Below the pieces are notes generated by a model. The model did not search any database. It was not told the DNA's origin and worked only from the letters and a program-made list of their open reading frames with translations. DNA of 64,000 bases from a virus, in the IMG/VR virus record IMGVR_UViG_3300012005_000004, positions 16,370-80,369 of that record. One strand, given 5' to 3'. How positions within the stretch are numbered: the stretch's first letter is position 1; every line of letters begins with the position of its first letter. The translations under genes were made by a program, and so were the position numbers. This document shows, one piece after another, positions 28,648-58,380 of this stretch.

Positions 28648-28728
28648 GCGGTGAGATCAAAATTTCTTTTAGTATCTTTTTGAGAAGATCTATATTAGAA
28701 TAGATCTAATCATGGAGAATTCAAGGAA

Positions 28729-31081: not shown

Positions 31082-31090
31082 AAGGCAGAG

Positions 31091-31606
31091 ATGAAACTCT
31101 CAACGATTTGGCATCTTCTCGCCTTAGCGACGGCTGCTGGTTTAGTAGCAATTTGCTATCCAGAACCTACTAAGAAACCAGAGCTTAAGCAAGTGGTTTC
31201 TACCACCTTAACTAAGGTCCCTGGAGTCTCTGAAGGTATAGAGCTGTACATAGACACCAAGACCATCGAAGATTTTGTTGATTCAAAGTCCTCAGTTCGA
31301 CACGCTGTAGTGGTGTACTATTTTACAACACCACTTGTCATTAGAGGTAAGGATGTTTATTACATGCAAAAAGATGCTTTTTATGCATGTGATGATAATC
31401 TCTTCTTAAACGGTGATATAATCTTCTATGACAAGGCCGCCAGCCAGCTTTTCAAAGGACCAACTGGTGTCGGTGTTGAAAAACCAGAGAAGGATACAAA
31501 CTCAGAGGTTGAGATGAAATTTATCTGTGGCTCCAATGTTACAAAGAAGTCAGCTCCAAAGAGCTCAATCGGCCCAATAAAGCCACTTAATCACATTTAC
31601 ATTTAA
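31091..31606 (+). CDS. exported or membrane-anchored hypothetical protein
   Basis: Signal-like N-terminus; paired Cys. Confidence 0.6.
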   Translation: MKLSTIWHLLALATAAGLVAICYPEPTKKPELKQVVSTTLTKVPGVSEGIELYIDTKTIEDFVDSKSSVRHAVVVYYFTTPLVIRGKDVYYMQKDAFYACDDNLFLNGDIIFYDKAASQLFKGPTGVGVEKPEKDTNSEVEMKFICGSNVTKKSAPKSSIGPIKPLNHIYI

Positions 31607-31617
31607 GGAGCATTAAC

Positions 31618-34790: not shown

Positions 34791-34908
34791 AACTGCATTC
34801 TTTCTCTTTTTCACAGCTCTAATGAAAGAGCAGTGAAAACTTGTTCACAATCTAGGAGAACAATGATATAATTTCTCCATCGATAGAGAAACTTTGGAGA
34901 ATTCCGCA

Positions 34909-38039: not shown

Positions 38040-39425
38040 ATGAGTAACGAGATCTACTACACCAGCCATGATGGTGGTGCTACGCTCTTTATGGACGGAA
38101 AGCTGAAGTCAATCTCCAGCGATCACCCAAATTTCATGAAGATCATGAGCGCTCTCAAGGCAAAGTCATATGACTTGGCCATCAAGCTCATGGACATGGT
38201 AGGAACCATCAATGATATTGGATCAAATGTTTCCAAGAAGTTTGTTGGTCGTAGAGTTTTTGTCGAAGGTGAAACGGTTTACTTCACGGATGAAAATGGC
38301 AAACATCATGTCTTGCACGGTACTCTTGTTGATCGCATCATCGATGATATCGGTAAGCCATCTGGACAAAAATATGCAGATGCTCTCTTGGCTCTTCAAG
38401 ATAACATCATGCGCAACACTCGCAAGGATATTCGCGAAGAGCTGTATGAGTTCTTAATGTCTGGAAAGACGCCGATCACGATGGATGGTTGCTTCCTGGC
38501 TTACAAGAAGGTAAAGGCTGCAAACAAGCAAGGTCAATACCTTGACATCTACTCTGGAACTATGGATAACGCGCCTGGTAAGATTCCGCGTATGGATCCA
38601 AAAGATGTCGACGCAGATCGGTACCGAGAATGCTCTCGAGGACTGCATTTCTGTTCTCGTGGTTATTTGAGTCACTATGGAAATGGAGATGGAGATGATT
38701 CATCTGTAGTTATGGTGGTGAAGGTCAATCCAAAGGATGTGTTTGCAATTCCTACGGATTATTCATTCCAAAAAGGTCGGGCATCTGAATATTATGTGGT
38801 AGGTATGGTTAATAAGGGACACGATCTTTCCAAAAGTGACGTGTTCAAGGATTCTTTTATCGATGAAGATAGCAAGGAAGCTTCGGCACCGAATGTTACA
38901 TTCAAGGCGCCTCTCAAGGCTGGCTTGCAAACTGTTGGCGAAAGCTATGGTTTGATCAACGATGGAAAATGCTTGGTCATCGAACAGAACGGAAAATATG
39001 TTCCAGTTAGATCAGCTTCATTCACCGGTAAGGTAGATGCTCCTGGTGCCGATCAAGTGAAGCATCGGTTGGGTAAGGTTATCATGGAGATGTTTGAATT
39101 GGCTTCATTTGAAGTTACGAGTGACCTTACTCTTGAACAAGTTGGTGGCGATTCGCTAGATGCGGTAGAGCTAGTTATGGCGATCGAAGATGAGTTTGAG
39201 ATTGAGATCTCCGATGATGATGCTGAAAAATTCCACACGTCAATGGATATTCTTAACTATCTGCTCAAGGTGAATAAGATCTTTCCACCGAATAAGTATT
39301 CTTATGTTGATGTTCTTGGAACTCCAGTTACCGGAGAACCGAAACTCATGTCATTTGAAACGAAGTCGGTTCGTCAGTCAGTAAAAGAAGCAGTACAAAA
39401 AGCTCAAGGATCTGTTAAGAGTTAA
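38040..39425 (+). CDS. rIIB: rIIB-like protein with inserted acyl carrier protein domain
   Basis: PITMDGCFLAYKKV, ECSRGLH, VKVNPKDVFAIP (rIIB); GGDSLDAVELVMAIEDEFEIEISDDDAEK (ACP). Confidence 0.9.
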   Translation: MSNEIYYTSHDGGATLFMDGKLKSISSDHPNFMKIMSALKAKSYDLAIKLMDMVGTINDIGSNVSKKFVGRRVFVEGETVYFTDENGKHHVLHGTLVDRIIDDIGKPSGQKYADALLALQDNIMRNTRKDIREELYEFLMSGKTPITMDGCFLAYKKVKAANKQGQYLDIYSGTMDNAPGKIPRMDPKDVDADRYRECSRGLHFCSRGYLSHYGNGDGDDSSVVMVVKVNPKDVFAIPTDYSFQKGRASEYYVVGMVNKGHDLSKSDVFKDSFIDEDSKEASAPNVTFKAPLKAGLQTVGESYGLINDGKCLVIEQNGKYVPVRSASFTGKVDAPGADQVKHRLGKVIMEMFELASFEVTSDLTLEQVGGDSLDAVELVMAIEDEFEIEISDDDAEKFHTSMDILNYLLKVNKIFPPNKYSYVDVLGTPVTGEPKLMSFETKSVRQSVKEAVQKAQGSVKS

Positions 39426-40377: not shown

Positions 40378-42498
40378 ATGCAACGGATTTATAAGGATAA
40401 TGCCGTGTTGCGAGGCATTATCGAAAACACCATGGATGCGATCATCGTCATTAACGATGATAATAAAGTAGTAGAATGGAACAAGTATGCCACTGATTTA
40501 TTTGGATATACCCAAGATGAAGCTATCGGTAGATCATTATCTTCTCTGATTATACCAGATACGTTCATTCCTCACCATGAGGCATGCGTTAATCGAGCTG
40601 TCCAAAATCAAAAAGATCATTGTTATCTTAGAACTGAGATGGATGCACGCAGAAAAGATGGTTGTAAGCTCAAAATTGAGCTTACAGTTTCTCAGATAAC
40701 TCTAAAAGATCAAAGCGGAATAAAGAATAGTTTGTTTAGCGTAGCAATACGTGATATCACAGTTCAAAAGAATAGTCAAGACCGTGTGATTCGCCAAGCT
40801 TCTCTTTTAGATCTTTCGCGTGATGGTATCTATGTTATTGATAAAGATCAGAGGTTGACTTGGTGGAATAAGGGGGCTGAGCTGCTCTACGGATATTCCA
40901 CTGATGAAGCTATCGGTCATATAGCTTATGAATTGTTACAAACAGATTACCCACTAAGTGGTAGGAATGCCTTTGAAGAGATCTTTCAAACACTTCTACA
41001 TTCTGGTTCTTGGGAAGGGGAGTTGACGCAACTCACAAAAGACGGTAATCGCGTTACAGTTCTCAGCCGTTGGGTACTTGATATCGAATATGATGAAGTG
41101 TTAATAACTAATACCAATATCACAGAGCTAAAACGAAATCAAGAAAAAATCGAATATCTCGCTACGCATGATGATCTCACTGGTTTGCCAAACCGTCGGT
41201 TGCTAGAAGATAGAATAAACCATGCGATAATCCAATGTGAACGAAATGGTGGTCACGTTGGTGTTCTATTCTTAGACCTTGATCGTTTCAAGATCATAAA
41301 TGATTCGCTTGGTCATGACATGGGAGATAAACTACTCAATGAGGTTAGTCAAAGATTAGTCAAATCAGTGAGACGTGAAGATACCGTAGCTCGTCTAGGT
41401 GGAGATGAATTTGTAGTAGTTCTTGAGAATGTATCAAATATTGAAGATATAGCTGAGATCTCTTCCAAGATACTGAATTCTATTCAACAACCTATTTCAT
41501 TGGGAGAAGGTGCTGGGAAGAGCATCTCAATCAACACTAGCATTGGTGGTTCCGTCTACCCAAAAGATGGCCTAGACGTTATCACATTGATGAGGAACGC
41601 TGATTTAGCTATGTATAAGTCTAAAGAATATGAAATGGGGGCATTTCGTTTCTACAGCCCAGAGATGAATGAGTTAGTTCTTCAACGACTGACAAATGAA
41701 AATAATTTAAGAAAAGCATTGAATAATGAAGAATTCATTCTCCATTTTCAACCGAAGATCTGTAGCGCAGAAGGGCGTACCACCGGTGTTGAAGCATTGA
41801 TTCGATGGAACCACCCAGAAAAGGGTTTAATCATGCCATCTGAATTTATTGGATTAGCTGAAGAGATCGGGTTAATCAATAAAATTGGTGAGTGGGCTCT
41901 ATACGCAGCGTGCGAGCAAAATAAAGCATGGCAAAATATGGGATTGCCTCTCATACAGATGTCAGTAAACTTGTCAGTGCACCAGCTCACGCCAAATTTA
42001 GTTAACATCGTATCAAAAGCGTTGAAAATGTCTGGCTTAGATCCAAAGTGGTTAGACCTAGAAGTTACCGAATCTGCTGCGATGAAAGATGTAGACATGA
42101 CGATTGAAACCTTAGGTAAACTTCGAAAGCTTGGTGTGTCAATCTCTATCGATGATTTTGGAACTGGATATTCATCTCTAGAATATCTTAAAAAGATGCC
42201 GTTAGATAACTTGAAGATTGATCAATCATTTGTTAGTGGCATTCCAACAGATTCTAATGACCTTTGTATCGTGGCTGCAATCATTGGTCTGGCTCATAAC
42301 ATGAAGCTACGAGTGATCGCTGAAGGAGTGACATCTAAAGAACAAGTTGCGTTCTTAGACACACACAAATGTGATGAGATGCAGGGTTACCTATTCAGCC
42401 GTCCAGTGACAGCTGAGGACGTAGAGCAAAGGTTGATCGGTCAAGTTTGGAGCTACCCATACCAAGGAAATCATGAACTACGAACGTGCGATGATTGA
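40378..42498 (+). CDS. PAS-PAS-GGDEF-EAL diguanylate cyclase/phosphodiesterase
   Basis: HDDLTGLPNR, RRED I-site, GGDEF, EALIRW, DDFGTGYSS, IAEGV. Confidence 0.96.
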   Translation: MQRIYKDNAVLRGIIENTMDAIIVINDDNKVVEWNKYATDLFGYTQDEAIGRSLSSLIIPDTFIPHHEACVNRAVQNQKDHCYLRTEMDARRKDGCKLKIELTVSQITLKDQSGIKNSLFSVAIRDITVQKNSQDRVIRQASLLDLSRDGIYVIDKDQRLTWWNKGAELLYGYSTDEAIGHIAYELLQTDYPLSGRNAFEEIFQTLLHSGSWEGELTQLTKDGNRVTVLSRWVLDIEYDEVLITNTNITELKRNQEKIEYLATHDDLTGLPNRRLLEDRINHAIIQCERNGGHVGVLFLDLDRFKIINDSLGHDMGDKLLNEVSQRLVKSVRREDTVARLGGDEFVVVLENVSNIEDIAEISSKILNSIQQPISLGEGAGKSISINTSIGGSVYPKDGLDVITLMRNADLAMYKSKEYEMGAFRFYSPEMNELVLQRLTNENNLRKALNNEEFILHFQPKICSAEGRTTGVEALIRWNHPEKGLIMPSEFIGLAEEIGLINKIGEWALYAACEQNKAWQNMGLPLIQMSVNLSVHQLTPNLVNIVSKALKMSGLDPKWLDLEVTESAAMKDVDMTIETLGKLRKLGVSISIDDFGTGYSSLEYLKKMPLDNLKIDQSFVSGIPTDSNDLCIVAAIIGLAHNMKLRVIAEGVTSKEQVAFLDTHKCDEMQGYLFSRPVTAEDVEQRLIGQVWSYPYQGNHELRTCDD

Positions 42499-44596: not shown

Positions 44597-44625
44597 TTTA
44601 CAAACTCAAAAAGTTAGTTTATAAT
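44597..44625 (+). promoter_or_regulatory. sigma70-like early promoter for Ro60
   Basis: TTTACA-N17-TATAAT. Confidence 0.8.
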
Positions 44626-44711
44626 TCTCCTTCACGCTTAAGCTAGTGTGTTGAATAGTGGCGCTGATCCATTGAAGGATCACAATTCCCTAACTGAAAG
44701 GTAATAAAAAC

Positions 44712-46148
44712 ATGAAGACCAACGCAAAGGCAGTAAACAACCGTCGCACCGAAGGTGGTGCACGTGCATCGGCGATCACGCCGGAACAAGAGCTGCGCCG
44801 TCAAGTAATGGCACTGATGCTGTGGGAAAATGGCGGACAGACAGAAAAGAATGTCGCATCGCTGATCCCGAAGTGTCGGCCAGAGTTCGTGGCCGCGTGC
44901 GCGTTCGAAGCTCGCACGAAGATGAAGCTGCGCCACGTTCCGCTGTTCATCGCGCGCGAGATGGCTCGGCACCCAGAGCACAAGTCCCTGGTGGGTAAGT
45001 TGCTGCCTGACCTGATCAACCGTGCCGATGAGATCAATGAGTTCATGGCGATCTACTGGAAGAACGGTAAGACCCCGATCTCGGCGCAAGTCAAGAAGGG
45101 TTTGGCCGCAGCTTTCAAGAAGTTCGGTCCGTATGCGCTGGCGAAGTACAATAAGACCGACATGGCCATCAAGATGCGTGATGTGATGTTCTTGACTCAC
45201 GCTAAGCCTGCCGATGCTCCTGGTGACAAGTACACCAAGGAAGTTCGTAAGGCTGAACGTGCTGGACAAAAGGCTCGTCAGCTGACCAAGGGCGAAAAGC
45301 TGTTCTCGGACTTGATCAATGACAAGCTGGAAACTCCTGACACATGGGAAACCAACCTGTCGGCTGGTGCAGACAAGAAGGAAACGTTTGAACGATTGAT
45401 GTCTGAAAACAAGCTGGGTGCATTGGCATTCATTCGTAACCTGCGGAACATGGTTCAGGCTGGTGTGAGCCGGCAGGCTATGAAGGAGTACGGAGCCAAG
45501 GTAAACTTGGAATACGTGCTGCCGTTCCGGTTCTTGTCAGCAGCTCGTCAAGTTCCAGGAATGGAAGACCTGTTGGAGCCGATGATGTTGCGTTGCCTGG
45601 AAGGTCAACCGAAGCTGCCGGGTAAGACCGTGCTGATTCTCGACACTTCTGGTTCGATGCACGCCGGAATCTCGGGCAAGTCTGACCTGACTCGTTTGGA
45701 CACGGCCGCAGCGCTGGCGATCTTGGTTCGTGAAATTTGCGAAGATGTCGTCATCTACTGTACCGCAGGTTCGGATGGAGCACGTCGTCACGCTACCATG
45801 CAGATCCCAGCACGTCGTGGATTTGCGCTGGCGGATTACATCCGTAGCAATGAAGTTCAAGGCAAGATCGGTGGTGGCGGTATCTTCTTGAAGCAGTGCC
45901 TGGACTTCGTGGAAATGAACGAAAAGACGGCAGACCGCGTGATCACGTTGACCGACGAGATCGACTGCGATGACAAGGCGTCTCCGGAGGGAGCTTCGAC
46001 TTTCGGTGAGAACAACTACATCATCAACGTCGCTACGCAGGCTAACGGTATCGCGTACTCGAAGTTCACGCACATCAACGGTTGGAGCGAAGCTGTAATC
46101 GACTTCATCCGCGTGCTTGAAGAAGACCAAGCGGCTGAATTGCAGTAA
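44712..46148 (+). CDS. rsr: Ro60/Rsr TROVE-vWA RNA-binding protein
   Basis: LAKY, L.TPDTWET.LS, ALAFIRNLRN, LPFRFLSA, vWA DTSGSM, GWSE. Confidence 0.93.
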   Translation: MKTNAKAVNNRRTEGGARASAITPEQELRRQVMALMLWENGGQTEKNVASLIPKCRPEFVAACAFEARTKMKLRHVPLFIAREMARHPEHKSLVGKLLPDLINRADEINEFMAIYWKNGKTPISAQVKKGLAAAFKKFGPYALAKYNKTDMAIKMRDVMFLTHAKPADAPGDKYTKEVRKAERAGQKARQLTKGEKLFSDLINDKLETPDTWETNLSAGADKKETFERLMSENKLGALAFIRNLRNMVQAGVSRQAMKEYGAKVNLEYVLPFRFLSAARQVPGMEDLLEPMMLRCLEGQPKLPGKTVLILDTSGSMHAGISGKSDLTRLDTAAALAILVREICEDVVIYCTAGSDGARRHATMQIPARRGFALADYIRSNEVQGKIGGGGIFLKQCLDFVEMNEKTADRVITLTDEIDCDDKASPEGASTFGENNYIINVATQANGIAYSKFTHINGWSEAVIDFIRVLEEDQAAELQ

Positions 46149-46232
46149 TGTTTTACGCATGGCACATGCGTACAAGTCCCCTGGATAAGAGATGGAATGT
46201 GCTAACAGAGGTCGGTTTACCATTCACCTCTT

Positions 46233-46366
46233 GGATGTGTAGCTCAGGTTGGTAGAGCGTCTAGTAGGAAAGCCCGGACGTTGATCCCATGTGGAAGCGC
46301 ATGGAGTAGTCGCGGTGTAGCAAGTACAAATGAAGGTCGCAGGTTCGACGCCTGCCACATCCGCCA
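46233..46366 (+). ncRNA. tRNA-like RNA (134 nt) with anticodon arm replaced by a long hairpin
   Basis: Acceptor GGATGTG/CACATCC+GCCA, D arm GCTC-AGGTTGGTA-GAGC, T arm GCAGG-TTCGACG-CCTGC; about 80 nt between D and T arms. Confidence 0.8.
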
Positions 46367-46368
46367 AA

Positions 46369-46608
46369 ATGAAACGAATTAGCACTTTATTGTTGAATCG
46401 AGTAATTGATAGCGTTCACCATCGAGCTTTTCGAGGGTATCCTACCTATTATGAAGAAATAAAGATCTTAGAGCTCCTAAAGGATGCACGTGAACTTATG
46501 AACAAGCATGATAAAGATAGAAGTAAAGTTGATTTAATCGCTCACGTTGTTCTAATCGGTGTTCTAGCTTTATCCGGTGTTATTGTAACCTACTCACTAT
46601 TTCGCTAA
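46369..46608 (+). CDS. small membrane protein
   Basis: C-terminal TM; ATG just after the tRNA-like CCA. Confidence 0.5.
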   Translation: MKRISTLLLNRVIDSVHHRAFRGYPTYYEEIKILELLKDARELMNKHDKDRSKVDLIAHVVLIGVLALSGVIVTYSLFR

Positions 46609-46844
46609 TGATGACCGATAAAGATATTCAATTCTTGAAAGAGCAGGTAAAGAATGGTGAGAACGTGTGTTATATCGATGATGACGGTAAGCGTCTTTTA
46701 GTATCCTCTGTGAATCTAAACTGGGTAGAATTCCCAGATGAACCAGATCTAAAAGAACCAGCCGCCATGCTAGTTGGTAGCGTTCCTGTAGCTTTATTGA
46801 ACGTTGAGCTGAGTTCTTTCATGAAATTGGTACCTCTAAAATAA
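46608..46844 (+). CDS. hypothetical protein
   Basis: TAATG coupling. Confidence 0.55.
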   Translation: MMTDKDIQFLKEQVKNGENVCYIDDDGKRLLVSSVNLNWVEFPDEPDLKEPAAMLVGSVPVALLNVELSSFMKLVPLK

Positions 46845-46857
46845 TTTCATAAAGTAG

Positions 46858-46886
46858 TTTACTTTTCTAGAAAGACAAGATATAAT
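46858..46886 (+). promoter_or_regulatory. sigma70-like promoter driving small RNAs
   Basis: TTTACT-N17-TATAAT; no ORF immediately downstream. Confidence 0.8.
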
Positions 46887-46900
46887 ACTTCCATAGCATA

Positions 46901-46975
46901 AATTCTTAAGTAAGAGCGATCTTAGTAGAGATACACTGTTAACATTAGCAGTACTAAGGCTCTTACTTAAGAATT
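46901..46975 (+). ncRNA. hairpin small RNA
   Basis: Perfect 17-bp stem 46901-46917/46959-46975 plus inner CTTAGTA/TACTAAG. Confidence 0.6.
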
Positions 46976-47040
46976 CAGGTGGCGTAGATAACGGTTACTT
47001 CACTTCCAAAGAAACCAACCGTTCTCGCTTAGTTCCCCTG
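46976..47040 (+). ncRNA. candidate minimal Y-RNA-like hairpin
   Basis: CAGG/CCTG closing, bulged GCG/CGC, AACGGTT/AACCGTT helix, TTC/GAA cap; near rsr. Confidence 0.5.
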
Positions 47041-47046
47041 TAATAT

Positions 47047-47126
47047 GGTTCCGTAGCTCAATGTTAGAGCGCCTGGTCCCTTTGCGGACAGGAGATAGTG
47101 GAGTTCAAATCTCTCTCGGATCCACC
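47047..47126 (+). tRNA. atypical tRNA-like gene (extended anticodon stem, 6-nt loop CTTTGC)
   Basis: GGTTCCG/CGGATCC acceptor with T-T mismatch, D arm GCTC/GAGC, TTCAAAT loop. Confidence 0.6.
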
Positions 47127-47167
47127 TAAATTTGTAATTTTTGTGAAGTCTTATAAATAAACCTGTT

Positions 47168-47263
47168 ATGAAAAACTTTGTTTCCTTACTGTCGCTTAGT
47201 TATTGGTCATTGTCCTACCTTGGACAAGGCCTTGATGTACCGACTGAAGGATGGGATTTGTAG
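47168..47263 (+). CDS. putative Leu/Ser-rich leader peptide (31 aa)
   Basis: MKNFVSLLSLSYWSLSYLGQGLDVPTEGWDL* directly after TATAAATA; overlaps alternative hairpins. Confidence 0.55.
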   Translation: MKNFVSLLSLSYWSLSYLGQGLDVPTEGWDL

Positions 47264-47291
47264 GAACCCACAAAGATTCAGCAGGTTTATC

Positions 47292-47319
47292 AAGGCTCCG
47301 CAAGGGGCCTTAATTGTTT
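47292..47319 (+). terminator. terminator-like hairpin (attenuator candidate)
   Basis: AAGGCTCC-GCAA-GGGGCCTT then AATTGTTT; weak U-tract. Confidence 0.55.
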
Positions 47320-47422
47320 CTGGAGATAGAAAATGGATTGTGATCATGGATATCTTCTGGGCAATGGTTTGGGTGTTGTGGATAGCGATGATAGCTTCGC
47401 TGATCAGCACTGATTAAAATAT

Positions 47423-47505
47423 CTTCGACTGGCTAATACAAACTGGCACAGTTAGCGTCCTCAAAAGTCGCGCCTCTATCGGTTCGAATCCGATGTCGAA
47501 GACCA
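47423..47505 (+). tRNA. tRNA-Leu(CAA), short variable arm, long D loop
   Basis: CTTCGAC/GTCGAAG+ACCA; loop CTCAAAA; ATCGG-TTCGAAT-CCGAT. Confidence 0.8.
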
Positions 47506-47516
47506 AAGTAGTATAT

Positions 47517-47607
47517 GGATCTCGCAAGTAAGGATGGGTGGTCCCGTCAGCCGGCTGTAACCCGGTTCCTATTAGGCAAGGCGTTCAACTCGACCCGAGA
47601 TCCACCA
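47517..47607 (+). tRNA. atypical tRNA-Tyr(GTA), 8-bp acceptor, 6-bp D stem
   Basis: GGATCTCG/CGAGATCC+ACCA; GATGGG-TGGT-CCCGTC; GCCGG-CTGTAAC-CCGGT. Confidence 0.75.
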
Positions 47608-47611
47608 AAAT

Positions 47612-47696
47612 GTATCAGTAGACCCTTAAGGAGAGGGGACAGTCTGTAAAACTGTTGGCTTTGCCCTGCTAGGATCGTTACCTAGATGATGCACCA
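47612..47696 (+). tRNA. tRNA-Tyr(GTA)
   Basis: ACAGT-CTGTAAA-ACTGT; T loop ATCGTTA; ACCA end. Confidence 0.85.
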
Positions 47697-47720
47697 AGAA
47701 GTATGTTATAATGGGATTAT

Positions 47721-47810
47721 GGAAGATAGCGTCTAAGGTAGACAAACGGCTTTGAACACCGTCGCCAACACCTCAGTAGGGTTGTCAGTTCGATTCTGGT
47801 CTCTTCCGCC
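47721..47810 (+). tRNA. tRNA-Ser(TGA), 8/4 fold
   Basis: GGAAGATA/TCTCTTCC, loop TTTGAAC, long V arm, TCAG-TTCGATT-CTGG. Confidence 0.8.
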
Positions 47811-47861
47811 TGTGAACCTTTTTACCACTTTGTATAAATACATGTTTCGAAAGAGACATGT

Positions 47862-48542
47862 ATGCAAAGACAAGCTTCACGTAGAAAGTATCATTACATT
47901 TACAAGACCATTTGTTTAGTGAGTAACCGATACTACATCGGAATGCATTCTACCGATGATCTTGATGATGGATATGTAGGTTCTGGGAAACGATTATGGC
48001 ATTCAATCCGTAAACATGGGTTAGAAAAACATAAATGTGAAATTTTAGAATTTTTAGATTCAAGAGAAAAACTTAAGATTCGTGAACGAGAGATCGTTAA
48101 TGAAGATTTCCTTAAAGATCCTCAATGCATGAATCTGACGTTGGGTGGTGGGTGTGGATGGGATTATACAAATTCAGTATTAACCGACGAACAAAGAACT
48201 AAAGCTGGAAAAGCTGGTGGATATGCTAATAGAACATTTGAGCAACGATCAGCTGCTGGTAAAATAGGTGGTAAGATTGGAGGAGTACTAACCTGGTTAA
48301 AGAATAGAGAACAAGCTGAAGCATATAGGAAAATAGCTATTAAAATCGCTACATTACCAGAAAACATAGAAAAAAGAAAAATCACCTTTATGAAAATGAA
48401 TCATCAAAAAGGAGAAAAGAATTCTCAATTTGGTACAAAATGGATTCATAATGATGATTTGAAACTTAGTAAAAAGTGCAATAAGAATGATCTATTAGAT
48501 CATTTAGAAAATGGTTGGAAGCTTGGAAGAAAGATAAAATAG
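47862..48542 (+). CDS. GIY-YIG homing endonuclease (Seg-like) in tRNA cluster
   Basis: YIYKTI...YYIGMH, YVGSG, N-L..GG, GEKNSQFGT; AT-rich; TATAAATA upstream. Confidence 0.85.
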   Translation: MQRQASRRKYHYIYKTICLVSNRYYIGMHSTDDLDDGYVGSGKRLWHSIRKHGLEKHKCEILEFLDSREKLKIREREIVNEDFLKDPQCMNLTLGGGCGWDYTNSVLTDEQRTKAGKAGGYANRTFEQRSAAGKIGGKIGGVLTWLKNREQAEAYRKIAIKIATLPENIEKRKITFMKMNHQKGEKNSQFGTKWIHNDDLKLSKKCNKNDLLDHLENGWKLGRKIK

Positions 48543-48613
48543 GTCACTGATGTAGTGATAGCATGACAGTCTCCAAAACTGTTTGTCAGAGTTTGATTCT
48601 CTGGTGGCCTGCC
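48541..48613 (+). tRNA. tRNA-Trp(CCA)
   Basis: AGGTCAC/GTGGCCT; ACAGT-CTCCAAA-ACTGT. Confidence 0.85.
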
Positions 48614-48619
48614 GTTATT

Positions 48620-48708
48620 GGAAGTGTATTGTGCCAGGTGGCACAGATGGTTTGCTAAACCATTGGGCTCAGTTAATGGGCCGGGTTCGAGTCCCTGCGC
48701 TTCCGCCA
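48620..48708 (+). tRNA. tRNA-Ser(GCT), 9/3 fold
   Basis: GGAAGTGTA/TGCGCTTCC, D TGTGCC-AGGT-GGCACA, ATGGT-TTGCTAA-ACCAT, GGG-TTCGAGT-CCC, GCCA. Confidence 0.85.
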
Positions 48709-48783
48709 GTTGGTTGACCGCATGACCGTTCCGGTAAGTAAGATCAAAGGTCGTTAATATTGACACCAACATTTAAGAAGTAT

Positions 48784-48870
48784 GCCCGAGTGGTGAAATG
48801 GTATCCACAGAAGACTTAAAATCTTCCGGCTGTAATGGCCATACCGGTTCGAGTCCGGTCTCGGGCACCA
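48784..48870 (+). tRNA. tRNA-Leu(TAA)
   Basis: Canonical class II cloverleaf, loop CTTAAAA, ACCA. Confidence 0.93.
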
Positions 48871-48872
48871 TT

Positions 48873-48959
48873 GGAAGTTAAACTGCGTAGGACGCAGCGC
48901 TGCCTCGAAAACAGTAGGACTCAGTAATGGGTTGAGTTTCGATTACTCTTTCTTCCGCC
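48873..48959 (+). tRNA. tRNA-Ser(CGA), 8/4 fold
   Basis: D CTGCGT-AGG-ACGCAG, loop CTCGAAA, GAGT-TTCGATT-ACTC; acceptor has two U-U mismatches. Confidence 0.75.
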
Positions 48960-48967
48960 GACCTCAT

Positions 48968-49054
48968 GCACCTATGGCGGAACTGGTAGACGCGCAAGAT
49001 TGAGGGTCTTGTGTCCGAAAGGACGTGGGAGTTCGAATCTCCCTAGGTGCACCA
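48968..49054 (+). tRNA. tRNA-Leu(GAG)
   Basis: Canonical; CAAGA-TTGAGGG-TCTTG; ACCA. Confidence 0.93.
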
Positions 49055-49069
49055 AGTAATATCACACTT

Positions 49070-49158
49070 CCCCGTGTGGACAAATTGGTAAAGTTGCCGC
49101 ACTCAGACTGCGGAGCCGCGAAAGCGTATTGTCGGTTCGAACCCGACCATGGGGACCA
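49070..49158 (+). tRNA. tRNA-Leu(CAG)
   Basis: CCGCA-CTCAGAC-TGCGG; ACCA. Confidence 0.9.
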
Positions 49159-49217
49159 GTTGAAATAGTTTTACTTTGTAGTGAAAGCATGGTATAATTT
49201 TCTTTTAGGAGAAAAAC

Positions 49218-49646
49218 ATGTTTGAAGCTTACAATGGCGACAAGGACAAGTTGGTGAAGTTTAATGGAGTAGCAGCTCAAAAGATTCTTGATAAGTTTGC
49301 GAGCTCCAATGTTGTTAGTAACCCAGGTCTTCAAAAATTTACTTTTGATGATTTTAAGGTCGGTGAATTCACAGCATCATTTAGCTACTTCTTCGATCGT
49401 CAAAAAGGAATTGACTTCTTAAAGTGTGGTGACAAGATGTATGTTCATGATCAATGGGTTAAGACAGAAACTTTCTCAGGAGTTCAAGTCTCCATTGGAG
49501 AATCATTTCCTCAACTAGCTGATGATATCAAGAAGGCATTTCCAGATCTTGGATTTAACATCATCTTCATCAAGGAGCTAGGTTTGAGGATGCAAGTTAG
49601 CGCAGGAGAGATCTACAACATCGAACGTTTTAAAGAAATTAAGTAG
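49218..49646 (+). CDS. hypothetical early protein
   Basis: Promoter 49170-49198; AGGAG SD. Confidence 0.7.
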   Translation: MFEAYNGDKDKLVKFNGVAAQKILDKFASSNVVSNPGLQKFTFDDFKVGEFTASFSYFFDRQKGIDFLKCGDKMYVHDQWVKTETFSGVQVSIGESFPQLADDIKKAFPDLGFNIIFIKELGLRMQVSAGEIYNIERFKEIK

Positions 49647-49653
49647 CATTAAT

Positions 49654-49735
49654 GGGATTGTGGCTAATACAAATCGGCACAGTTATCAGGTTTAGAACCT
49701 GAGCCTTTGAGGGTTCGAATCCCTCCAGTCCTACC
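49654..49735 (+). tRNA. tRNA-Leu(TAG), short variable arm
   Basis: TCAGG-TTTAGAA-CCTGA; D region nearly identical to Leu(CAA) at 47423. Confidence 0.85.
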
Positions 49736-50128
49736 GATCACAAAGCTGACCTATCGCTGAGGTGTAAAAATTCTTAGAGAAATCTAAGTTGTAAACCCTT
49801 AGAGGAAAGTCGGGGCTACAAAGAGCAGGGATTGTCGCTCTGTGGAAGTAAGAGGTGTTGATTGAAAACTACCCTGAGGTCTGAAAAGGCAACAGGCTCT
49901 CGCAATCATCACTAGATATCAGATCTGTGTGGTAACAGCACAAACAACCTCGTATCCTCGCTTACGTTATACCACAACGACTCCGTAGCAAGCCAAACAG
50001 GTACCGTTGACGTTGCTGGCCGAGGTACCGGGTTGGTGCAGCCGAAAGGCACGAGGGTGTATGGCAACCCACACCGTCGTAGACGAATGATAGGATAAAA
50101 CAGAACTCCGCTTACGGGCTTTGTGATC
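49736..50128 (+). ncRNA. rnpB: RNase P RNA (bacterial type A-like)
   Basis: P1 GATCACAAAGC/GCTTTGTGATC; GAGGAAAGTCGGGGCT (49802-49817), TAGACGAATGA, ACAGAACTCCGCTTA (50100-50114); P4 pairing retained. Confidence 0.9.
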
Positions 50129-50131
50129 AAT

Positions 50132-50219
50132 ATGTCGACTTAACATGGTCTGAACATGGCCACGGGCAGGTGATACTTCCCGTGGTGTGGGCAATACGTG
50201 GAGGAGCCTTAATCGACAT
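50132..50219 (+). ncRNA. unclassified rod-shaped small RNA candidate
   Basis: ATGTCGA/TCGACAT closing; CCACGGG/CCCGTGG apical stem; GC-rich intergenic. Confidence 0.45.
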
Positions 50220-52260: not shown

Positions 52261-52335
52261 GGGCTGTTAGCACAGTGGTTAGTGCAATGGACTCCAAACC
52301 CATTGACGGGAGTTCGATTCTCTCACGGCTCGCCA
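52261..52335 (+). tRNA. tRNA-Trp(CCA)
   Basis: GGGCTGT/ACGGCTC+GCCA; loop CTCCAAA. Confidence 0.88.
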
Positions 52336-55283: not shown

Positions 55284-55589
55284 ATGCCGTGGATAACAAA
55301 CAGAATTTTCAAGATACGATTTTTGAAGCAAGGTAAAAATAGTGAAGATCATACGATACAATTTGAGATAGCAGATACTGGTCGCATTGAATTTTATAAA
55401 GAGATCGAATACTTTTTAGCGTCTTGCATCAACGCTGATGCATTCATTGCTAAGTGTGAGAGCATCATTGATGACTCTGGAGAAGCTACCGAGCTTGAAA
55501 TCGAGATCTCTGGATCCCAAGGAAAGTTGATGCAGGTGTTAAACCAACATGGGCCGGAGCTGAGCAAGCATTCGGTTAGTTTTAAATGA
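55284..55589 (+). CDS. hypothetical protein
   Basis: AGGA SD before ATG 55284. Confidence 0.55.
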   Translation: MPWITNRIFKIRFLKQGKNSEDHTIQFEIADTGRIEFYKEIEYFLASCINADAFIAKCESIIDDSGEATELEIEISGSQGKLMQVLNQHGPELSKHSVSFK

Positions 55590-56137
55590 TAGAAGAGATT
55601 AAGGTAATATTTCTAGACATCGATGGAGTTATTAACTCATTACGCTCATTTACCGCGTTCAAACCTTATAACCCAGAAGATGATCTCGAGCTAGAAACCA
55701 TCGCTACATGTGATCCTGTTTCTGTTAAGTTAATCAATATGATCGTCGAGCAGACCAAGGCTAAGATCGTCGTATCATCTTCTCACCGAATTTACTTTCA
55801 CTCAAGGTATGCTTCTCGATTTCAAGAGACGTCCTTCTTAGGATTTGACCTAGACAAGCTTCAGCTGTATATCTCCTCACTTGGAATTTTTGGTGAAGTC
55901 ATCGACGCAACTCCTATCTTTGATGGTGAGAAGAGGGGTGAAGAGGTAAATGGATGGTTAAATGAATTTCCAGCAAAATTTCCTTTATATGCGTTGAGTC
56001 GGTATGCCATCTTTGATGATACCACAGACTTTCTAGCAGAGCAAGCGTCAAAGCTAGTTCTATCTACTTTTGATAATGGGTTTTCAATCGACAACTACAA
56101 GCGAGCGTTATTGATCTTAGGAGATGACATTGCCTGA
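55586..56137 (+). CDS. HAD phosphatase, Swiss-Army-Knife RNA-repair type
   Basis: FLDIDGV, IVVSSS, RGEEV..WL, YAIFDD. Confidence 0.82.
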   Translation: MIEEIKVIFLDIDGVINSLRSFTAFKPYNPEDDLELETIATCDPVSVKLINMIVEQTKAKIVVSSSHRIYFHSRYASRFQETSFLGFDLDKLQLYISSLGIFGEVIDATPIFDGEKRGEEVNGWLNEFPAKFPLYALSRYAIFDDTTDFLAEQASKLVLSTFDNGFSIDNYKRALLILGDDIA

Positions 56138-57059
56138 AGGCCCAGAAGTTAAGCGTTGCTCTGAGGTTCTCAGTGACGTTATCAGCGGAAAATCCTTGAC
56201 TTCGATTAAGTTGATTAGCGGGAAGATTAGTCGAGGTGTCAACGATCTAGAGAAACTTCAACTTCCAGCTAAGGTTTTAAGCGTGTTCACGAAGGGGAAG
56301 GTGATCTTCATAAGGCTTGCCGGAGATTACTCTATCATCTCAACTCTCGGTATGTCTGGGTGGTGGTACCCACCGCTTGAAACGATCAACCCATTATTAA
56401 TGAGCCAAGCTTATTACTCAAAGGTAATTGACACGATCAATAAAGCTGAGCAGCACACCAGATTATCGCTCAACATGGATGACGGAACCCAAGTAAATTA
56501 CATCGACCCGCGCAATTTTGGTAACTTTTTCGTGGTAACGCAAGATGAATTCCAAGCGAGAGTAAACTTGCTCGGCGTCGACCTACTCAATAACGTAAGC
56601 TACATTGGTCTTCCAAATGGGATCGATTGGTTTTCAACTTGCTTGTCAAAGAAGAAGTACTCGAAGAAACCGATCGCTGAGGTGTTACTCGATCAATCGC
56701 TGATCGCTGGAATTGGTAACATCTATCGATCCGAATCGCTCTACCTAGCCGGAATAGACCCAAATCGTGAAGCTGGAAGCTTATCTCAAGATCAATGCTT
56801 AAAACTCATTAAGGCCGTTGATATGGTCCTCGAGCTCGCGTATCAAGGACGAGGTCGAATGGTCTATCCGATCAATGATGTTATAGATTTTTTAACTATT
56901 GAGATGGCTCAAAAGTTAAGGGGATCCATGCCAGGAAACACTACGGCCGTTAATGGACACCTAGTGTATGGACACGCGGAAGACGTTATGGGGAATGAAG
57001 TGCTTCGATCGCCCATCGGTTCAAGGACAGCCTGGTGGGTTCCTGCAGTGCAGACATAA
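56130..57059 (+). CDS. Fpg/Nei DNA glycosylase, zincless finger
   Basis: (M)PEGPEV with TTG start at 56130, KGK, LGMSG, DPRNFG, H2TH LLDQ..IAGIGNIY. Confidence 0.9.
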   Translation: MPEGPEVKRCSEVLSDVISGKSLTSIKLISGKISRGVNDLEKLQLPAKVLSVFTKGKVIFIRLAGDYSIISTLGMSGWWYPPLETINPLLMSQAYYSKVIDTINKAEQHTRLSLNMDDGTQVNYIDPRNFGNFFVVTQDEFQARVNLLGVDLLNNVSYIGLPNGIDWFSTCLSKKKYSKKPIAEVLLDQSLIAGIGNIYRSESLYLAGIDPNREAGSLSQDQCLKLIKAVDMVLELAYQGRGRMVYPINDVIDFLTIEMAQKLRGSMPGNTTAVNGHLVYGHAEDVMGNEVLRSPIGSRTAWWVPAVQT

Positions 57060-57754: not shown

Positions 57755-58041
57755 ACAAATACTCAACATCACTTGCAATTTTTGCTCAAGCTCCAGCAAT
57801 GAGTATTGACCAGGAGCTTACCGTTAAGCTTAAGGTTCTGTCGGAACAGAAGGATGATGTGAAATCAGACCAGGTACTTGAGATCCTTGATCTCGGAGCC
57901 AGATATTCAATGATGAGCGAGTTTGCGATGCGGGCTCTTGACGAGCTGTGGTACATAATGATCAAAGATGAAGGTAAGACAGAGGAACAAGCTAGGTTGG
58001 AAGCTGAGCCAAGACGCAAGGCTCATGAGGCTAGCGAATAA
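57751..58041 (+). CDS. hypothetical protein
   Basis: ATGA coupling. Confidence 0.55.
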   Translation: MNKYSTSLAIFAQAPAMSIDQELTVKLKVLSEQKDDVKSDQVLEILDLGARYSMMSEFAMRALDELWYIMIKDEGKTEEQARLEAEPRRKAHEASE

Positions 58042-58049
58042 ATATTAGT

Positions 58050-58380
58050 TCATGATTGTGTGGGAAGGTAACTTCTCGAATGTCAATTTGAATGTAGTTT
58101 GGACAAGGGTTCGATTCCCTTCACCTCCACCGCGTTTTTAAGTTTTTAATGGGGGTGCCCTGGTTTCGACAGGCTAAGCTAGAAGAGAATACAATCCGGT
58201 AGGCGATGACCGTTAATCAAGCAAACGTTTAAATGCAAATGAAGCATTTTTTGGAAAGTTCGCTCTCGTAGCGTAGTTTCCACGAGGTTAACCACCTTGT
58301 CTCCGAACGGTTGAGGGAGCAACGCTCTCTTAGGGGTTTTAGCCGGTAGTCCTATCAACAGAATGAAACCGGCGCCAACG
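58050..58380 (+). ncRNA. ssrA: circularly permuted (two-piece) tmRNA; ends approximate
   Basis: T arm and CACCTCC-ACC (to 58131) precede the 5' end GGGGGTG...TTCGAC (58151); G3-U70 pair; tag ANEAFFGKFALVA* at 58235-58276. Confidence 0.9.

What the first reader, a model, noticed from the sequence alone, without database searches (positions are those of the whole stretch)
44597..50219. Ro60-anchored RNA island: a phage-built tRNA supply and quality-control system
Seen in under 6 kb: Ro60, two tRNA-like RNAs with altered anticodon arms, several hairpin RNAs, a leader peptide with alternative hairpins, a tRNA set limited to Leu/Ser/Tyr/Trp, and RNase P RNA; a permuted tmRNA lies 8 kb on. Established: Rsr/Y RNA handle damaged structured RNA. 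Inference: a coordinated system that senses tRNA loss, supplies structurally deviant nuclease-resistant tRNAs, matures them with its own ribozyme and offers decoys.
Basis: partly seen in the sequence, partly recalled or inferred. Interest (0 to 1): 0.85.

Follow-up and report, generated by a model that had tools for sequence, protein, structure and literature searches.

The report
Jumbo-phage island of RNA genes
Six kilobases of an uncultured soil giant phage do hold a Ro60 protein with its partner Y RNA, about a dozen partly odd-shaped tRNA genes behind a codon-matched 'test peptide' switch, and the phage's own RNase P ribozyme, but these look like separate modules that assort independently in other phages, not one proven anti-defence machine.

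Summary
The window is a fragment of a jumbo phage (rIIA/rIIB, about 22% complete).

It holds:
- a full-length Ro60 gene;
- one canonical short Y RNA (46976-47040; 56 bits with a model built without it);
- a tRNA-shaped RNA with a 74-nt arm in place of its anticodon arm;
- a tRNA-Lys-like element;
- a Leu/Ser/Tyr/Trp tRNA block with several non-canonical folds;
- a 393-nt class-A-type RNase P RNA;
- a two-piece tmRNA 8 kb further on.

The RNase P RNA belongs to a covarying clade of phage P RNAs. A 31-codon leader ORF has 13 consecutive Ser/Leu/Tyr/Trp codons that sample all eight anticodons behind it, and its RNA folds as terminator or antiterminator.

The "one coordinated system" reading is only partly supported. 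The island has at least three separately promoted units. None of 32 other Ro60 phage records has a P RNA. The nearest P RNA relatives lack Ro60 or carry it about 50 kb away. Decoy and nuclease-resistance roles are untested.

I found no paper on phage RNase P RNAs or on leader-gated tRNA arrays. This scan has already noted both, and phage Ro60 with partner RNAs, on other DNA.

The parts
44597..44625 (+). Promoter-like TTTACA-N17-TATAAT ahead of Ro60
   Evidence: 11/12 match. It is one of 9 exact copies of TTTACW-N17-TATAAT, all on the + strand, against 0.01 expected.
44655..44693 (+). Weak Y-stem-like element in the Ro60 5' leader (GTGGCG ... ATTCCC)
   Evidence: Only 10 bits, E about 2, with the Y RNA models. 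It sits where Y RNAs lie in other phages. Suggestive only.
44712..46148 (+). Ro60/TROVE protein, 478 aa
   Evidence: Relatives occur in 33 IMG/VR loci and 87 GenBank phage records.
46233..46366 (+). tRNA-shaped RNA: 7-bp acceptor stem, D and T arms, G73+CCA, and a 74-nt arm in place of the anticodon arm
   Evidence: Rfam tRNA 38.6 bits; ARAGORN with introns allowed. YrlA model scores only 20.7 bits, mostly on the D arm. No relatives found.
46858..46886 (+). Promoter-like TTTACT-N17-TATAAT ahead of the hairpin and Y RNA unit
46901..46975 (+). Long near-perfect hairpin directly 5' of the Y RNA (inferred RNase III-type processing or stabilising stem)
   Evidence: -32.2 kcal/mol, z -7.8, 0/200 shuffles.
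46976..47040 (+). Short Y RNA (YrlB-like, no tRNA module), the probable Ro60 ligand
   Evidence: 56.4 bits, E 2e-13, with model R2 built from 20 other phages. All invariant columns are kept. 12 of 14 pairs covary, 0/500 shuffles. blastn hit to L008.
47047..47126 (+). tRNA-Lys(UUU)-like element with lengthened anticodon stem, 6 nt after the Y RNA
   Evidence: Rfam tRNA 28.4 bits (gathering score 29); ARAGORN low threshold; fold.
47168..47263 (+). 31-codon leader ORF; codons 6-18 are all Ser/Leu/Tyr/Trp
   Evidence: Only LSYW run of 9 or more in six frames of the window; a run of 13 or more in 1 of 200 shuffles. It samples all 8 downstream anticodon classes (P about 0.036).
47228..47311 (+). Attenuator RNA: region 2 (47228-47241), region 3 (47284-47297), terminator hairpin 47292-47311 with a weak U tract
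   Evidence: The full leader folds as 1:2 plus terminator. Without region 1 it folds as 2:3 and the terminator is lost. Terminator scan hit.
47423..47505 (+). tRNA-Leu(CAA)-like, A73+CCA, unusual D region without G18G19
   Evidence: Paralogue of 49654-49736 with an identical 25-nt D region and compensatory changes in the acceptor, anticodon and T stems. ARAGORN at -ps90 misread it as tta.
47517..47607 (+). tRNA(GUA) on a tRNA-Sec-like scaffold (8-bp acceptor stem, 6-bp D stem with 4-nt loop)
   Evidence: Fold. Weak tRNA-Sec hit, 18.3 bits, E 0.5. Not called by ARAGORN.
47612..47696 (+). tRNA-Tyr(GUA), class II, non-standard T loop
   Evidence: ARAGORN low threshold; fold.
47721..47810 (+). tRNA-Ser(UGA), class II, G73
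   Evidence: ARAGORN low threshold; Rfam tRNA 20.4 bits, E 0.1.
47862..48542 (+). GIY-YIG homing endonuclease inside the tRNA block
   Evidence: phrog_314 7.9e-33; Pfam SegE_GIY-YIG weak. Homologues in L108 and L114.
48541..49158 (+). Canonical block: tRNA-Trp(CCA), Ser(GCU, 8/4 fold), Leu(UAA), Leu(GAG), Leu(CAG)
   Evidence: ARAGORN default settings and Rfam above the gathering score. Ser(GCU) hits the tRNA-Sec model at 51.4 bits.
49170..49198 (+). Promoter-like TTTACT-N17-TATAAT ahead of the ORF142, tRNA and RNase P unit
49218..49646 (+). ORF of 142 aa, no family, pI 5.9
   Evidence: No hits in Pfam, PHROGs or NCBIfam, and no homologues in related loci.
49654..49735 (+). tRNA-Leu(UAG)-like, A73+CC, abutting the P RNA
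   Evidence: Rfam tRNA 38.9 bits; paralogue alignment.
49736..50128 (+). RNase P RNA, class-A-derived, with a remodelled specificity domain
   Evidence: RF00010 72.9 bits, E 5e-21, model 1-367. It belongs to a clade of 9 phage sequences in which all 11 P1 pairs and the P2/P3 pairs show compensatory changes.
52261..52335 (+). Second tRNA-Trp(CCA), outside the finding
58038..58367 (+). Two-piece (permuted) tmRNA, tag ANEAFFGKFALVA
   Evidence: RF04321 123.4 bits, RF01850 116.2 bits, ARAGORN. No SmpB in the record.

Best explanation
The stretch is a genuine RNA-gene island of a jumbo phage. It is built from separate modules that share one theme, making and policing tRNA-like RNAs, but that are promoted separately and inherited independently.

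Module 1: a strong phage promoter drives Ro60. Behind it lies a tRNA-shaped RNA that at least serves as an RNase P / 3'-processing signal in that transcript.

Module 2: a second promoter drives a long hairpin, a 65-nt Y RNA and a tRNA-Lys-like element. The hairpin and the tRNA-like element probably define the Y RNA's ends. The Y RNA binds Ro60, as YrlA/YrlB bind Rsr. The same transcript then meets a trp-operon-style attenuator. A 31-codon leader contains 13 consecutive Ser/Leu/Tyr/Trp codons. If ribosomes stall there, region 2 pairs with region 3, the terminator cannot form, and RNA polymerase runs into the nine Leu/Ser/Tyr/Trp tRNA genes. This would explain why the block holds only those isotypes.

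Module 3: a third promoter drives an ORF, a tRNA-Leu(UAG)-like gene and, 2 nt behind its ACC end, a 393-nt RNase P RNA. tRNA processing releases the P RNA. It presumably assembles with the host RnpA protein and adds pre-tRNA 5'-cleavage capacity.

Shown here: the identities, conservation and covariation of Ro60, the Y RNA and the P RNA; the codon match and alternative folds of the leader. Inferred: Ro60 binding, ribozyme activity, attenuation and processing.
For: - Phage identity: rIIA, rIIB, homing endonuclease, endolysin; IMG/VR virus record.
- Ro60.
- Y RNA: the 5' motif and the 3' TTGTTCCC motif recur 1-4 times on the Ro60 strand in nearly all 30 related loci. An independent model gives 56.4 bits, and 12 of 14 pairs covary.
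- P RNA: CR-I, CR-IV, CR-V and CGGGTTG (the GGU motif) are invariant across a 9-member phage clade. All 11 P1 pairs show compensatory changes.
- P RNAs embedded in tRNA arrays recur in large phage genomes, including 463-kb, 385-kb DTR, 369-kb DTR and 169-kb DTR records, and often sit 0-6 nt from flanking tRNAs.
- Separate units: five of the nine TTTACW-N17-TATAAT sites lie inside the island.
- Leader.
- Functional odd tRNAs: paralogue covariation, and discriminator bases fit the anticodons.
- Independent assortment.
Against: - There are no RNA data; only DNA runs hold the stretch.
- The leader ORF has no Shine-Dalgarno sequence and the terminator's U tract is weak.
- No close relative exists to test conservation of the leader. 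None was seen in the G063 or G071 loci.
- The P RNA scores below Rfam's gathering score, and its specificity domain could not be matched to the T-loop-reading elements.
- No rnpA is in the record.
- Ro60 and P RNA do co-occur more often than chance would suggest among P RNA-bearing phages. They lie within 10 kb in G039 and in the same genome in G049, G070 and G071. Some functional link is therefore not excluded.
Confidence: 0.6

Rival explanations
1. One reading: one coordinated counter-defence system. The attenuator senses tRNA loss caused by host anticodon nucleases. The phage then supplies structurally deviant, nuclease-resistant tRNAs and matures them with a ribozyme whose specificity domain is tuned to them. 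It also offers tRNA-like decoys, with Ro60/Y RNA clearing the damaged RNAs.
For: - All parts lie within 6 kb on one strand.
- The leader matches the tRNA block.
- Several tRNAs deviate exactly in the anticodon arm or the elbow.
- The P RNA specificity domain is remodelled in the whole clade.
- Ro60 and P RNA co-occur in 4 other phage genomes, and lie within 10 kb in G039.
- A HAD domain of 'Swiss army knife' RNA-repair proteins lies 5.5 kb on.
Against: - The units are separately promoted.
- 0 of 32 Ro60 phage records have a P RNA.
- G063, the closest P RNA relative, is a complete genome without TROVE.
- No RNA ligase, RtcB, CCA-adding enzyme or nuclease inhibitor is recognisable.
- The Leu/Ser/Tyr/Trp set matches no anticodon nuclease specificity that I could document.
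- Resistance and decoy functions rest on shape alone.
Confidence: 0.12
2. The co-location has no functional meaning. RNA genes pile up in one permissive, highly transcribed region and are shuffled by homing endonucleases. The leader ORF is a chance or small-membrane-peptide ORF, and the odd tRNA-like elements are decaying tRNA genes or mere processing punctuation.
For: - A homing endonuclease sits in the block.
- About a quarter of Ro60 loci lie in tRNA arrays of quite different content.
- No homologue of the leader or of the 46233 RNA was found anywhere.
- z-scores of several tRNA-like folds are unremarkable.
Against: - A 13-codon LSYW run occurs in 1 of 200 shuffles. It also covers all 8 anticodon classes (P about 0.036) and sits directly before the block with terminator/antiterminator folds.
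- The paralogue pair shows compensatory changes in three stems.
- Discriminator bases fit the anticodons.
Confidence: 0.2
3. The RNase P RNA, tmRNA and tRNAs are host DNA (a mis-binned or chimeric contig), or a recently captured, decaying host rnpB.
For: - The window also has bacterial-looking genes: PAS-GGDEF-EAL, Fpg, PrkA/DUF444/SpoVR.
- Many 334-bit P RNAs in IMG/VR sit at the ends of small contigs and are probably host flank.
Against: - rIIA/rIIB, a homing endonuclease and an endolysin flank the island. One promoter motif runs through the whole window.
- The P RNA is far from any bacterial-type score. It clusters with P RNAs of eight other virus records, three of which are 99-385 kb (two with terminal repeats), and the helices covary.
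Confidence: 0.03

Closest known systems
Rsr/Ro60 with YrlA/YrlB Y RNAs of bacteria and mycobacteriophages (Chen et al. 2014, PMC4201824; Rfam RF02553); Thermus phage phiLo Ro60 (PMC12135203)
   Same: - A full-length TROVE protein.
- A Y RNA on the same strand within 1 kb that carries the GNCG(A/U)AG-type 5' motif and a conserved internal loop.
- tRNA-like RNAs beside it.
- Chen et al. already list 22 phages with such RNAs.
   Different: - The only canonical Y RNA here is the short form, and it lies downstream of Ro60. In most related phage loci the Y RNAs lie just upstream.
- No permuted YrlA is present.
- Instead there are stand-alone tRNA-shaped RNAs, one with an open acceptor stem and CCA.
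Bacterial class A RNase P RNA (Rfam RF00010; E. coli M1 RNA)
   Same: The P1-P4 core, CR-I, CR-IV, CR-V, the GGU motif for the CCA end, and overall length.
   Different: - It is encoded by a phage, 2 nt behind a tRNA.
- It scores below the gathering score.
- The specificity domain is remodelled, and is nearly absent in clade members of 200-260 nt.
- No protein subunit gene is in the record.
Leader-peptide transcription attenuators (trp, leu, his; multivalent thr and ilvGMEDA; pheST)
   Same: A short ORF with a run of regulatory codons, then mutually exclusive 1:2, 2:3 and 3:4 helices ending in a terminator.
   Different: - It gates tRNA genes, not biosynthetic or synthetase genes.
- It is four-valent (Ser/Leu/Tyr/Trp).
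- It has no Shine-Dalgarno sequence, and its U tract is weak.
Phage tRNA clusters with tmRNA and Ro (mycobacteriophage Bxz1-type, cited via Pedulla 2003 in PMC4201824; T4 tRNA region with stable RNAs C and D, from my own knowledge)
   Same: tRNA genes, stable small RNAs, homing endonucleases, tmRNA and Ro co-located in a large phage.
   Different: I know of no RNase P RNA or leader attenuator reported for those phages.
8/4 'allo-tRNA'-type serine tRNAs (Mukai et al. 2017, PMC5389517)
   Same: tRNA-Ser(GCU) at 48620-48708 has an 8-bp acceptor stem and a 4-bp T stem and hits the tRNA-Sec model. The abstract listing reads 'Certain bacteria and their' before it is cut off; that phages use 8/4 Ser tRNAs is from my own memory of the paper.
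   Different: Here it sits with further deviant scaffolds: a GUA tRNA with a Sec-like D arm, and Leu tRNAs lacking G18G19.

Membership tests
Ro60/TROVE (PF05731) | TROVE domain scoring over Pfam's cut-off | tested here: met
   46.2 bits against a cut-off of 23; phrog_850 1.8e-33.
Ro60/TROVE (PF05731) | Full-length ring plus vWA architecture like solved Ro60 proteins | tested here: met
   Residues 13-471 align to 23-484 of 9l5y/9kop, E 6.5e-22. MIDAS residues were not inspected.
Ro60/TROVE (PF05731) | Binds a Y RNA | not testable with these tools
   A conserved Y RNA is encoded 830 nt downstream. Binding itself is inferred.
Bacterial/phage Y RNA, short (YrlB-like) form | Conserved 5' GTGGCG(A/T)AG...TTACTTC motif, 3' TTGTTCCC motif, and two covarying helices | tested here: met
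   All invariant columns are kept. 56.4 bits with a model built without the window. Covariation is significant, 0/500 shuffles.
YrlA (Rfam RF02553) | Score over the gathering score (69 bits), with a permuted tRNA module inside the Y stem | tested here: not met
   The best hit in the record is 20.7 bits at 46190-46290, carried by the D arm, with many non-standard pairs. Long forms in relatives score 27-48 bits.
Bacterial RNase P RNA class A (RF00010) | Score over the gathering score (100 bits) | tested here: not met
   72.9 bits, E 5e-21, but the alignment is end to end, 1-367.
Bacterial RNase P RNA class A (RF00010) | Catalytic core: P1-P4, CR-I, CR-IV, CR-V | tested here: met
   GAGGAAAGTC, TAGACGAATG and ACAGAAC..GCTTAC are present and invariant across the clade. 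P1, P2 and P3 covary.
Bacterial RNase P RNA class A (RF00010) | L15 GGU motif that pairs with the tRNA CCA end | tested here: met
   CGGGTTG is invariant in all 9 sequences. Most island tRNAs encode CCA.
Bacterial RNase P RNA class A (RF00010) | Specificity domain with T-loop-reading elements (CR-II/III, P10-P12) | tested here: inconclusive
   The model's middle part is unaligned. Only two blocks flanking it are shared with G063. It is absent in the 200-260-nt clade members.
Bacterial RNase P RNA class A (RF00010) | Pre-tRNA 5' cleavage activity | not testable with these tools
   Needs an in vitro assay or complementation.
Leader-peptide attenuator | Short ORF with a run of regulatory codons | tested here: met
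   13 consecutive S/L/Y/W codons; a run that long occurs in 1 of 200 shuffles.
Leader-peptide attenuator | Terminator with a mutually exclusive antiterminator that overlaps the ORF | tested here: met
   Folds with and without region 1; terminator scan hit. The U tract is weak.
Leader-peptide attenuator | Conserved in relatives | tested here: inconclusive
   No close relative of the island exists in the collections. No analogue was seen in the G063 or G071 loci.
Two-piece tmRNA (RF04321 / RF01850) | Score over the gathering score, and a tag reading frame | tested here: met
   123.4 and 116.2 bits; ARAGORN tag ANEAFFGKFALVA.
8/4 serine tRNA (allo-tRNA-like) | 8-bp acceptor stem, 4-bp T stem, long variable arm | tested here: met
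   ARAGORN drawing; tRNA-Sec model 51.4 bits against a gathering score of 47.

The most novel reading that the evidence does not exclude
The island is a self-regulating phage tRNA supply chain. A ribosome-stall sensor (the four-valent leader attenuator) switches on a block of structurally unorthodox Leu/Ser/Tyr/Trp tRNAs. A phage ribozyme with a rebuilt specificity domain is specialised to mature those tRNAs. A Ro60 particle uses both a classical Y RNA and a CCA-ended, possibly chargeable, tRNA/Y-RNA hybrid to police or sequester them. Together these would give the phage translation capacity that is independent of the host and resistant to its defences.
Probability: 0.12. Interest if true: 0.9.

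Novelty: new variant of a known kind. Interest (0 to 1): 0.66.

Why it matters
RNase P RNA is regarded as a cellular housekeeping ribozyme. A covarying clade of phage-encoded versions, some stripped to about 200 nt and punctuated by tRNAs, gives natural minimal ribozymes. It also raises the question of why a virus needs its own tRNA 5'-maturase.

A leader-peptide attenuator that gates tRNA genes would extend trp-type attenuation from sensing amino-acid supply to sensing decoding capacity. It is directly testable with reporters.

The island also places a classical Ro60/Y RNA pair beside stand-alone tRNA mimics. That is a useful natural case for asking what Ro60 does during infection. I found none of this in the searched literature, although this scan has met the same two features in other phages.

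Tried and rejected
- Expression: no RNA holder is listed for 44600-50200, only soil DNA runs that may be the source.
- Relatives of the island: blastn of 44-53 kb against 33 Ro60 loci matched only the Ro60 CDS and the 65-nt Y RNA. A metagenome scan gave no Ro60 closer than 56%. A degenerate pattern for the 46233 RNA found nothing.
- YrlA model on the 46233 RNA: 20.7 bits, driven by the D arm, so rejected as a member. The GGTGTAG motif on its arm is too short to be significant; I estimate about 30 chance matches to the 7-mer class in 128 kb.
- Cultured phages: the window's P RNA has no GenBank phage match. Another phage P RNA matched only unannotated fecal contigs, a Salmonella record, and 'Microcystis phage MaAM05' in a region of bacterial-type genes. 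Ralstonia phage RsoM2USA, the best cultured Ro60 relative, has no P RNA.
- Partner genes not found in the 80-kb record: rnpA, SmpB, RtcB, CCA-adding enzyme, RNA ligase.
- ORF142 as a phage RNase P protein: acidic (pI 5.9), no family, not conserved.
- Leader analogues: no comparable LSYW leader in 1.1 Mb of other loci, and no block-matched ORFs in the G063, G070 or G071 loci.
- ARAGORN low-threshold calls judged to be artefacts: 'tRNA-Phe with 878-nt intron', 'tRNA-Arg(tcg)' on the minus strand, and 'tRNA-Stop(tta)', which I re-read as CAA.
- Literature: nine searches found no paper on phage-encoded RNase P RNA or on attenuator-gated tRNA operons. PMC8172020 reports only tRNAs and tmRNA in megaphages by Rfam.

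Full report
CONTEXT

The window is bases 16370-80369 of an 80,369-bp IMG/VR virus record that CheckV rates 22% complete. That implies a genome of roughly 360 kb. Phage identity is secure:
- rIIA (34894-37527) and rIIB (38040-39425), a GIY-YIG homing endonuclease and an endolysin;
- a promoter-like motif, TTTACW-N17-TATAAT, that occurs nine times, always on the + strand, against 0.01 expected.

The bacterial-looking genes are PAS-GGDEF-EAL, PrkA/DUF444/SpoVR and Fpg. They sit between these phage markers, so I reject host contamination.

OBSERVATION

Ro60 is real. ORF 44712-46148 has a TROVE domain and matches phrog_850. It aligns end to end with the solved TROVE protein 9l5y/9kop.

The two tRNA-like RNAs are real.
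- 46233-46363 scores 38.6 bits on the Rfam tRNA model. About 70 nt replace the anticodon arm, and the RNA ends in G+CCA.
- 47047-47123 scores 28.4 bits and has a lengthened anticodon stem.

The RNase P RNA is at 49738-50130 by Rfam. It scores 72.9 bits, below the gathering score of 100, with E 5e-21 and the full model aligned. By the P1 pairing it runs 49736-50128. The two-piece tmRNA is at 58038-58367.

The tRNA inventory of the whole 80-kb record is as follows.
- Called at default settings: Trp x2, Ser(GCU), Leu(UAA), Leu(GAG), Leu(CAG).
- Called at lower thresholds: Ser(UGA), two GUA tRNAs, Leu(CAA)-like, Leu(UAG)-like and the Lys(UUU)-like element.

The caveat is that 'limited to Leu/Ser/Tyr/Trp' describes one block in a fifth of a genome.

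THE Ro60 PARTNER RNA

A Ro60 search of IMG/VR gave 33 loci at 34-68% identity. Nearly all of them carry 1-4 RNAs on the Ro60 strand, usually just upstream of the gene. These RNAs begin GTGGCG(A/T)AG..CGGTTACTTC and end ..TTGTTCCC. They come in two forms:
- a short hairpin form;
- a long form that holds a T arm, a closed acceptor-like stem and a D arm. This is the YrlA architecture of Chen et al. 2014 (PMC4201824), and it scores 27-48 bits on RF02553.

The window has exactly one member, the short form, at 46976-47040.
- A covariance model built from 20 other phages, without the window, scores it 56.4 bits, E 2e-13. The next hit in 64 kb is 10.9 bits.
- On the 21-sequence alignment, 12 of 14 pairs show compensatory changes and 92% of cells pair. 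No shuffle out of 500 matches this.

A 39-nt element in the Ro60 5' leader (44655-44693) has the GTGGCG and ATTCCC ends. It scores only 10 bits, so it is suggestive at most.

The Y RNA is preceded by a roughly 30-bp hairpin (z -7.8). The tRNA-Lys-like element follows 6 nt after it. I infer that these two elements define the Y RNA's ends through RNase III-type and RNase P cleavage.

THE 46233 RNA

This RNA has a perfect tRNA frame. Its long arm carries GGTGTAG on the strand leading to the T arm and CGTCTAGT on the other strand. That recalls the Y stem in rotated order.

The evidence against a Y RNA identity is stronger:
- the conserved GTTCCC loop is not kept;
- the arm folds no better than shuffles (z -1.6);
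- RF02553 gives 20.7 bits, carried by the D arm;
- no relative was found.

I treat it as a tRNA-shaped RNA of unknown role. I put the chance that it binds Ro60 at about 30%. At the least it is a processing signal between Ro60 and the small ORF that starts 3 nt after its CCA.

THE RNase P RNA

It keeps CR-I, CR-IV, CR-V and the CGGGTTG (GGU) motif that pairs with the tRNA CCA end.

It is not an orphan.
- A CR-I pattern found 37 IMG/VR contigs, and 35 of 36 scored positive with RF00010.
- Some of these are 334-bit copies at the ends of small contigs, which are probably host flank.
- Many others lie inside large phage genomes: 463 kb, 385 kb DTR, 369 kb DTR, 268 kb, 169 kb DTR and others. They sit within tRNA arrays, often 0-6 nt from tRNAs on one or both sides.

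The window's RNA is closest to that of G063, a 385-kb DTR phage that shares rIIA at 42% identity. Two lineage-specific blocks retrieved seven more contigs. All score below the gathering score and span 200-440 nt.

In the nine-sequence alignment, all 11 P1 pairs and the P2 and P3 pairs show compensatory changes, while the core motifs are invariant. This is a selected, structured RNA.

The specificity domain is remodelled, and in some clade members it is almost gone. I could not place the T-loop-reading elements.

No rnpA is in the record, so the host protein is the presumed partner.

As in G063, the gene starts 2 nt after a tRNA-Leu 3' end. tRNA processing would therefore release it.

THE LEADER

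ORF 47168-47263 encodes 31 residues. Codons 6-18 are all Ser, Leu, Tyr or Trp.
- This is the only such run of 9 or more in six frames of the window. A run of 13 or more appeared in 1 of 200 shuffles.
- The 13 codons include at least one cognate codon for each of the eight anticodons in the block behind it: CAA, GUA, UGA, CCA, GCU, UAA, GAG and CAG. Given 13 LSYW codons, P is about 0.036.
- The full leader folds so that the run pairs with 47222-47252, and a terminator hairpin forms at 47292-47311.
- With the run removed, as under a stalled ribosome, 47228-47241 pairs with 47284-47297 and the terminator is lost.

This is the classical attenuator logic applied to tRNA genes. It would explain why the block is sorted by isotype.

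Its weaknesses are the lack of a Shine-Dalgarno sequence, a poor U tract, and the absence of any relative in which to test conservation.

THE ODD tRNAs

47423-47505 and 49654-49736 share an identical 25-nt D region that lacks G18G19. Their acceptor, anticodon and T stems differ by compensatory changes. Their anticodon loops read CAA and UAG, and both have A73.

Ser(GCU) has an 8/4 fold and hits the tRNA-Sec model. Mukai et al. 2017 (PMC5389517) describe the 8/4 fold; that phages use it is from my memory of the paper.

All discriminator bases fit the anticodons. These look like working tRNAs. Whether they resist nucleases is unknown.

IS IT ONE SYSTEM?

Three of the phage's promoter motifs stand before Ro60 (44597), before the hairpin and Y RNA (46858), and before the ORF142, tRNA and P RNA unit (49170). 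Two more follow at 50227 and 51393.

The comparative evidence:
- none of 32 other Ro60 phage records has a P RNA, nor has Ralstonia phage RsoM2USA;
- of 17 larger P RNA-bearing records, two have TROVE;
- one of these, G039, repeats the layout: Ro60-like gene, 3 kb, then a tRNA array with the P RNA;
- within the window's own P RNA clade, G070 and G071 have TROVE 49 and 54 kb from the P RNA, and the complete G063 has none.

The two genes therefore co-occur in tRNA-rich giant phages but are not syntenic.

About a quarter of the Ro60 loci lie in tRNA arrays. That pairing has been known since the Bxz1-type mycobacteriophages. No RNA ligase, RtcB or CCA-adding enzyme is in the record. Only a HAD domain of the RNA-repair 'Swiss army knife' type lies 5.5 kb further on.

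I conclude that the modules share a theme and a processing logic, but not a demonstrated common mechanism.

KNOWN OR NEW

Known in print:
- Ro60 with Y RNAs in phages (PMC4201824, PMC12135203, PMC7824862);
- 8/4 tRNAs (PMC5389517; their use by phages is from my memory of that paper);
- tmRNAs in huge phages (PMC8172020).

Not found in any of nine literature searches: phage RNase P RNAs and leader-gated tRNA arrays.

Earlier notes of this scan report phage P RNAs, such attenuators and phage Ro60 partner RNAs on other DNA. This island is therefore a further, unusually compact instance and not a first sighting.

Noticed in passing
window 20884, 37970, 44597, 46858, 49170, 50227, 51393, 53865, 59004 (all + strand): There are nine exact copies of TTTACW-N17-TATAAT against 0.01 expected. 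This is a phage promoter class, and five of the nine lie in the RNA island.
   Followed up: partly
window 38040-39425: The rIIB homologue carries a C-terminal phosphopantetheine-binding (acyl carrier) domain.
   Followed up: no
window 25851-33162 and 40378-42498: A PrkA / DUF444 / SpoVR triad and a 706-aa PAS-GGDEF-EAL protein are encoded by the phage.
   Followed up: no
L103 (G039:C1:1-16000): A complete 169-kb DTR phage repeats the layout. It has a Ro60-like gene at 1223-2890 and a 22-tRNA array at 5793-11506, with an RNase P RNA at 10407-10724 between tRNA-Gln and tRNA-Val.
   Followed up: partly
L118-L120 (G071, G073, G072): These are miniature phage RNase P RNAs of about 200-260 nt. They keep the core and have almost no specificity domain.
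   Followed up: partly
L087, L095-L097, L101 and others: Phage RNase P RNAs are flanked by tRNA genes at 0-6 nt on one or both sides, so tRNA processing would set both ends of the ribozyme.
   Followed up: partly
L107 (MW495066.1 111323-119417): The GenBank record 'Microcystis phage MaAM05' holds fabI, engB, mtgA and glyS around an RNase P-like match. This stretch looks bacterial.
   Followed up: no
window 55586-57059: A HAD domain of 'Swiss army knife' RNA-repair proteins is followed by an Fpg/Nei glycosylase, between the island and the tmRNA.
   Followed up: no
window 46369-46844: Two small ORFs of about 79 and 78 aa have no family. The first probably starts 3 nt after the CCA of the 46233 RNA, not at the ATG inside its T arm.
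   Followed up: no
L002-L031: In many Ro60 phages the last Y RNA ends about 10-15 nt before the Ro60 start codon. Y RNAs there would be cut from the Ro60 mRNA leader.
   Followed up: partly
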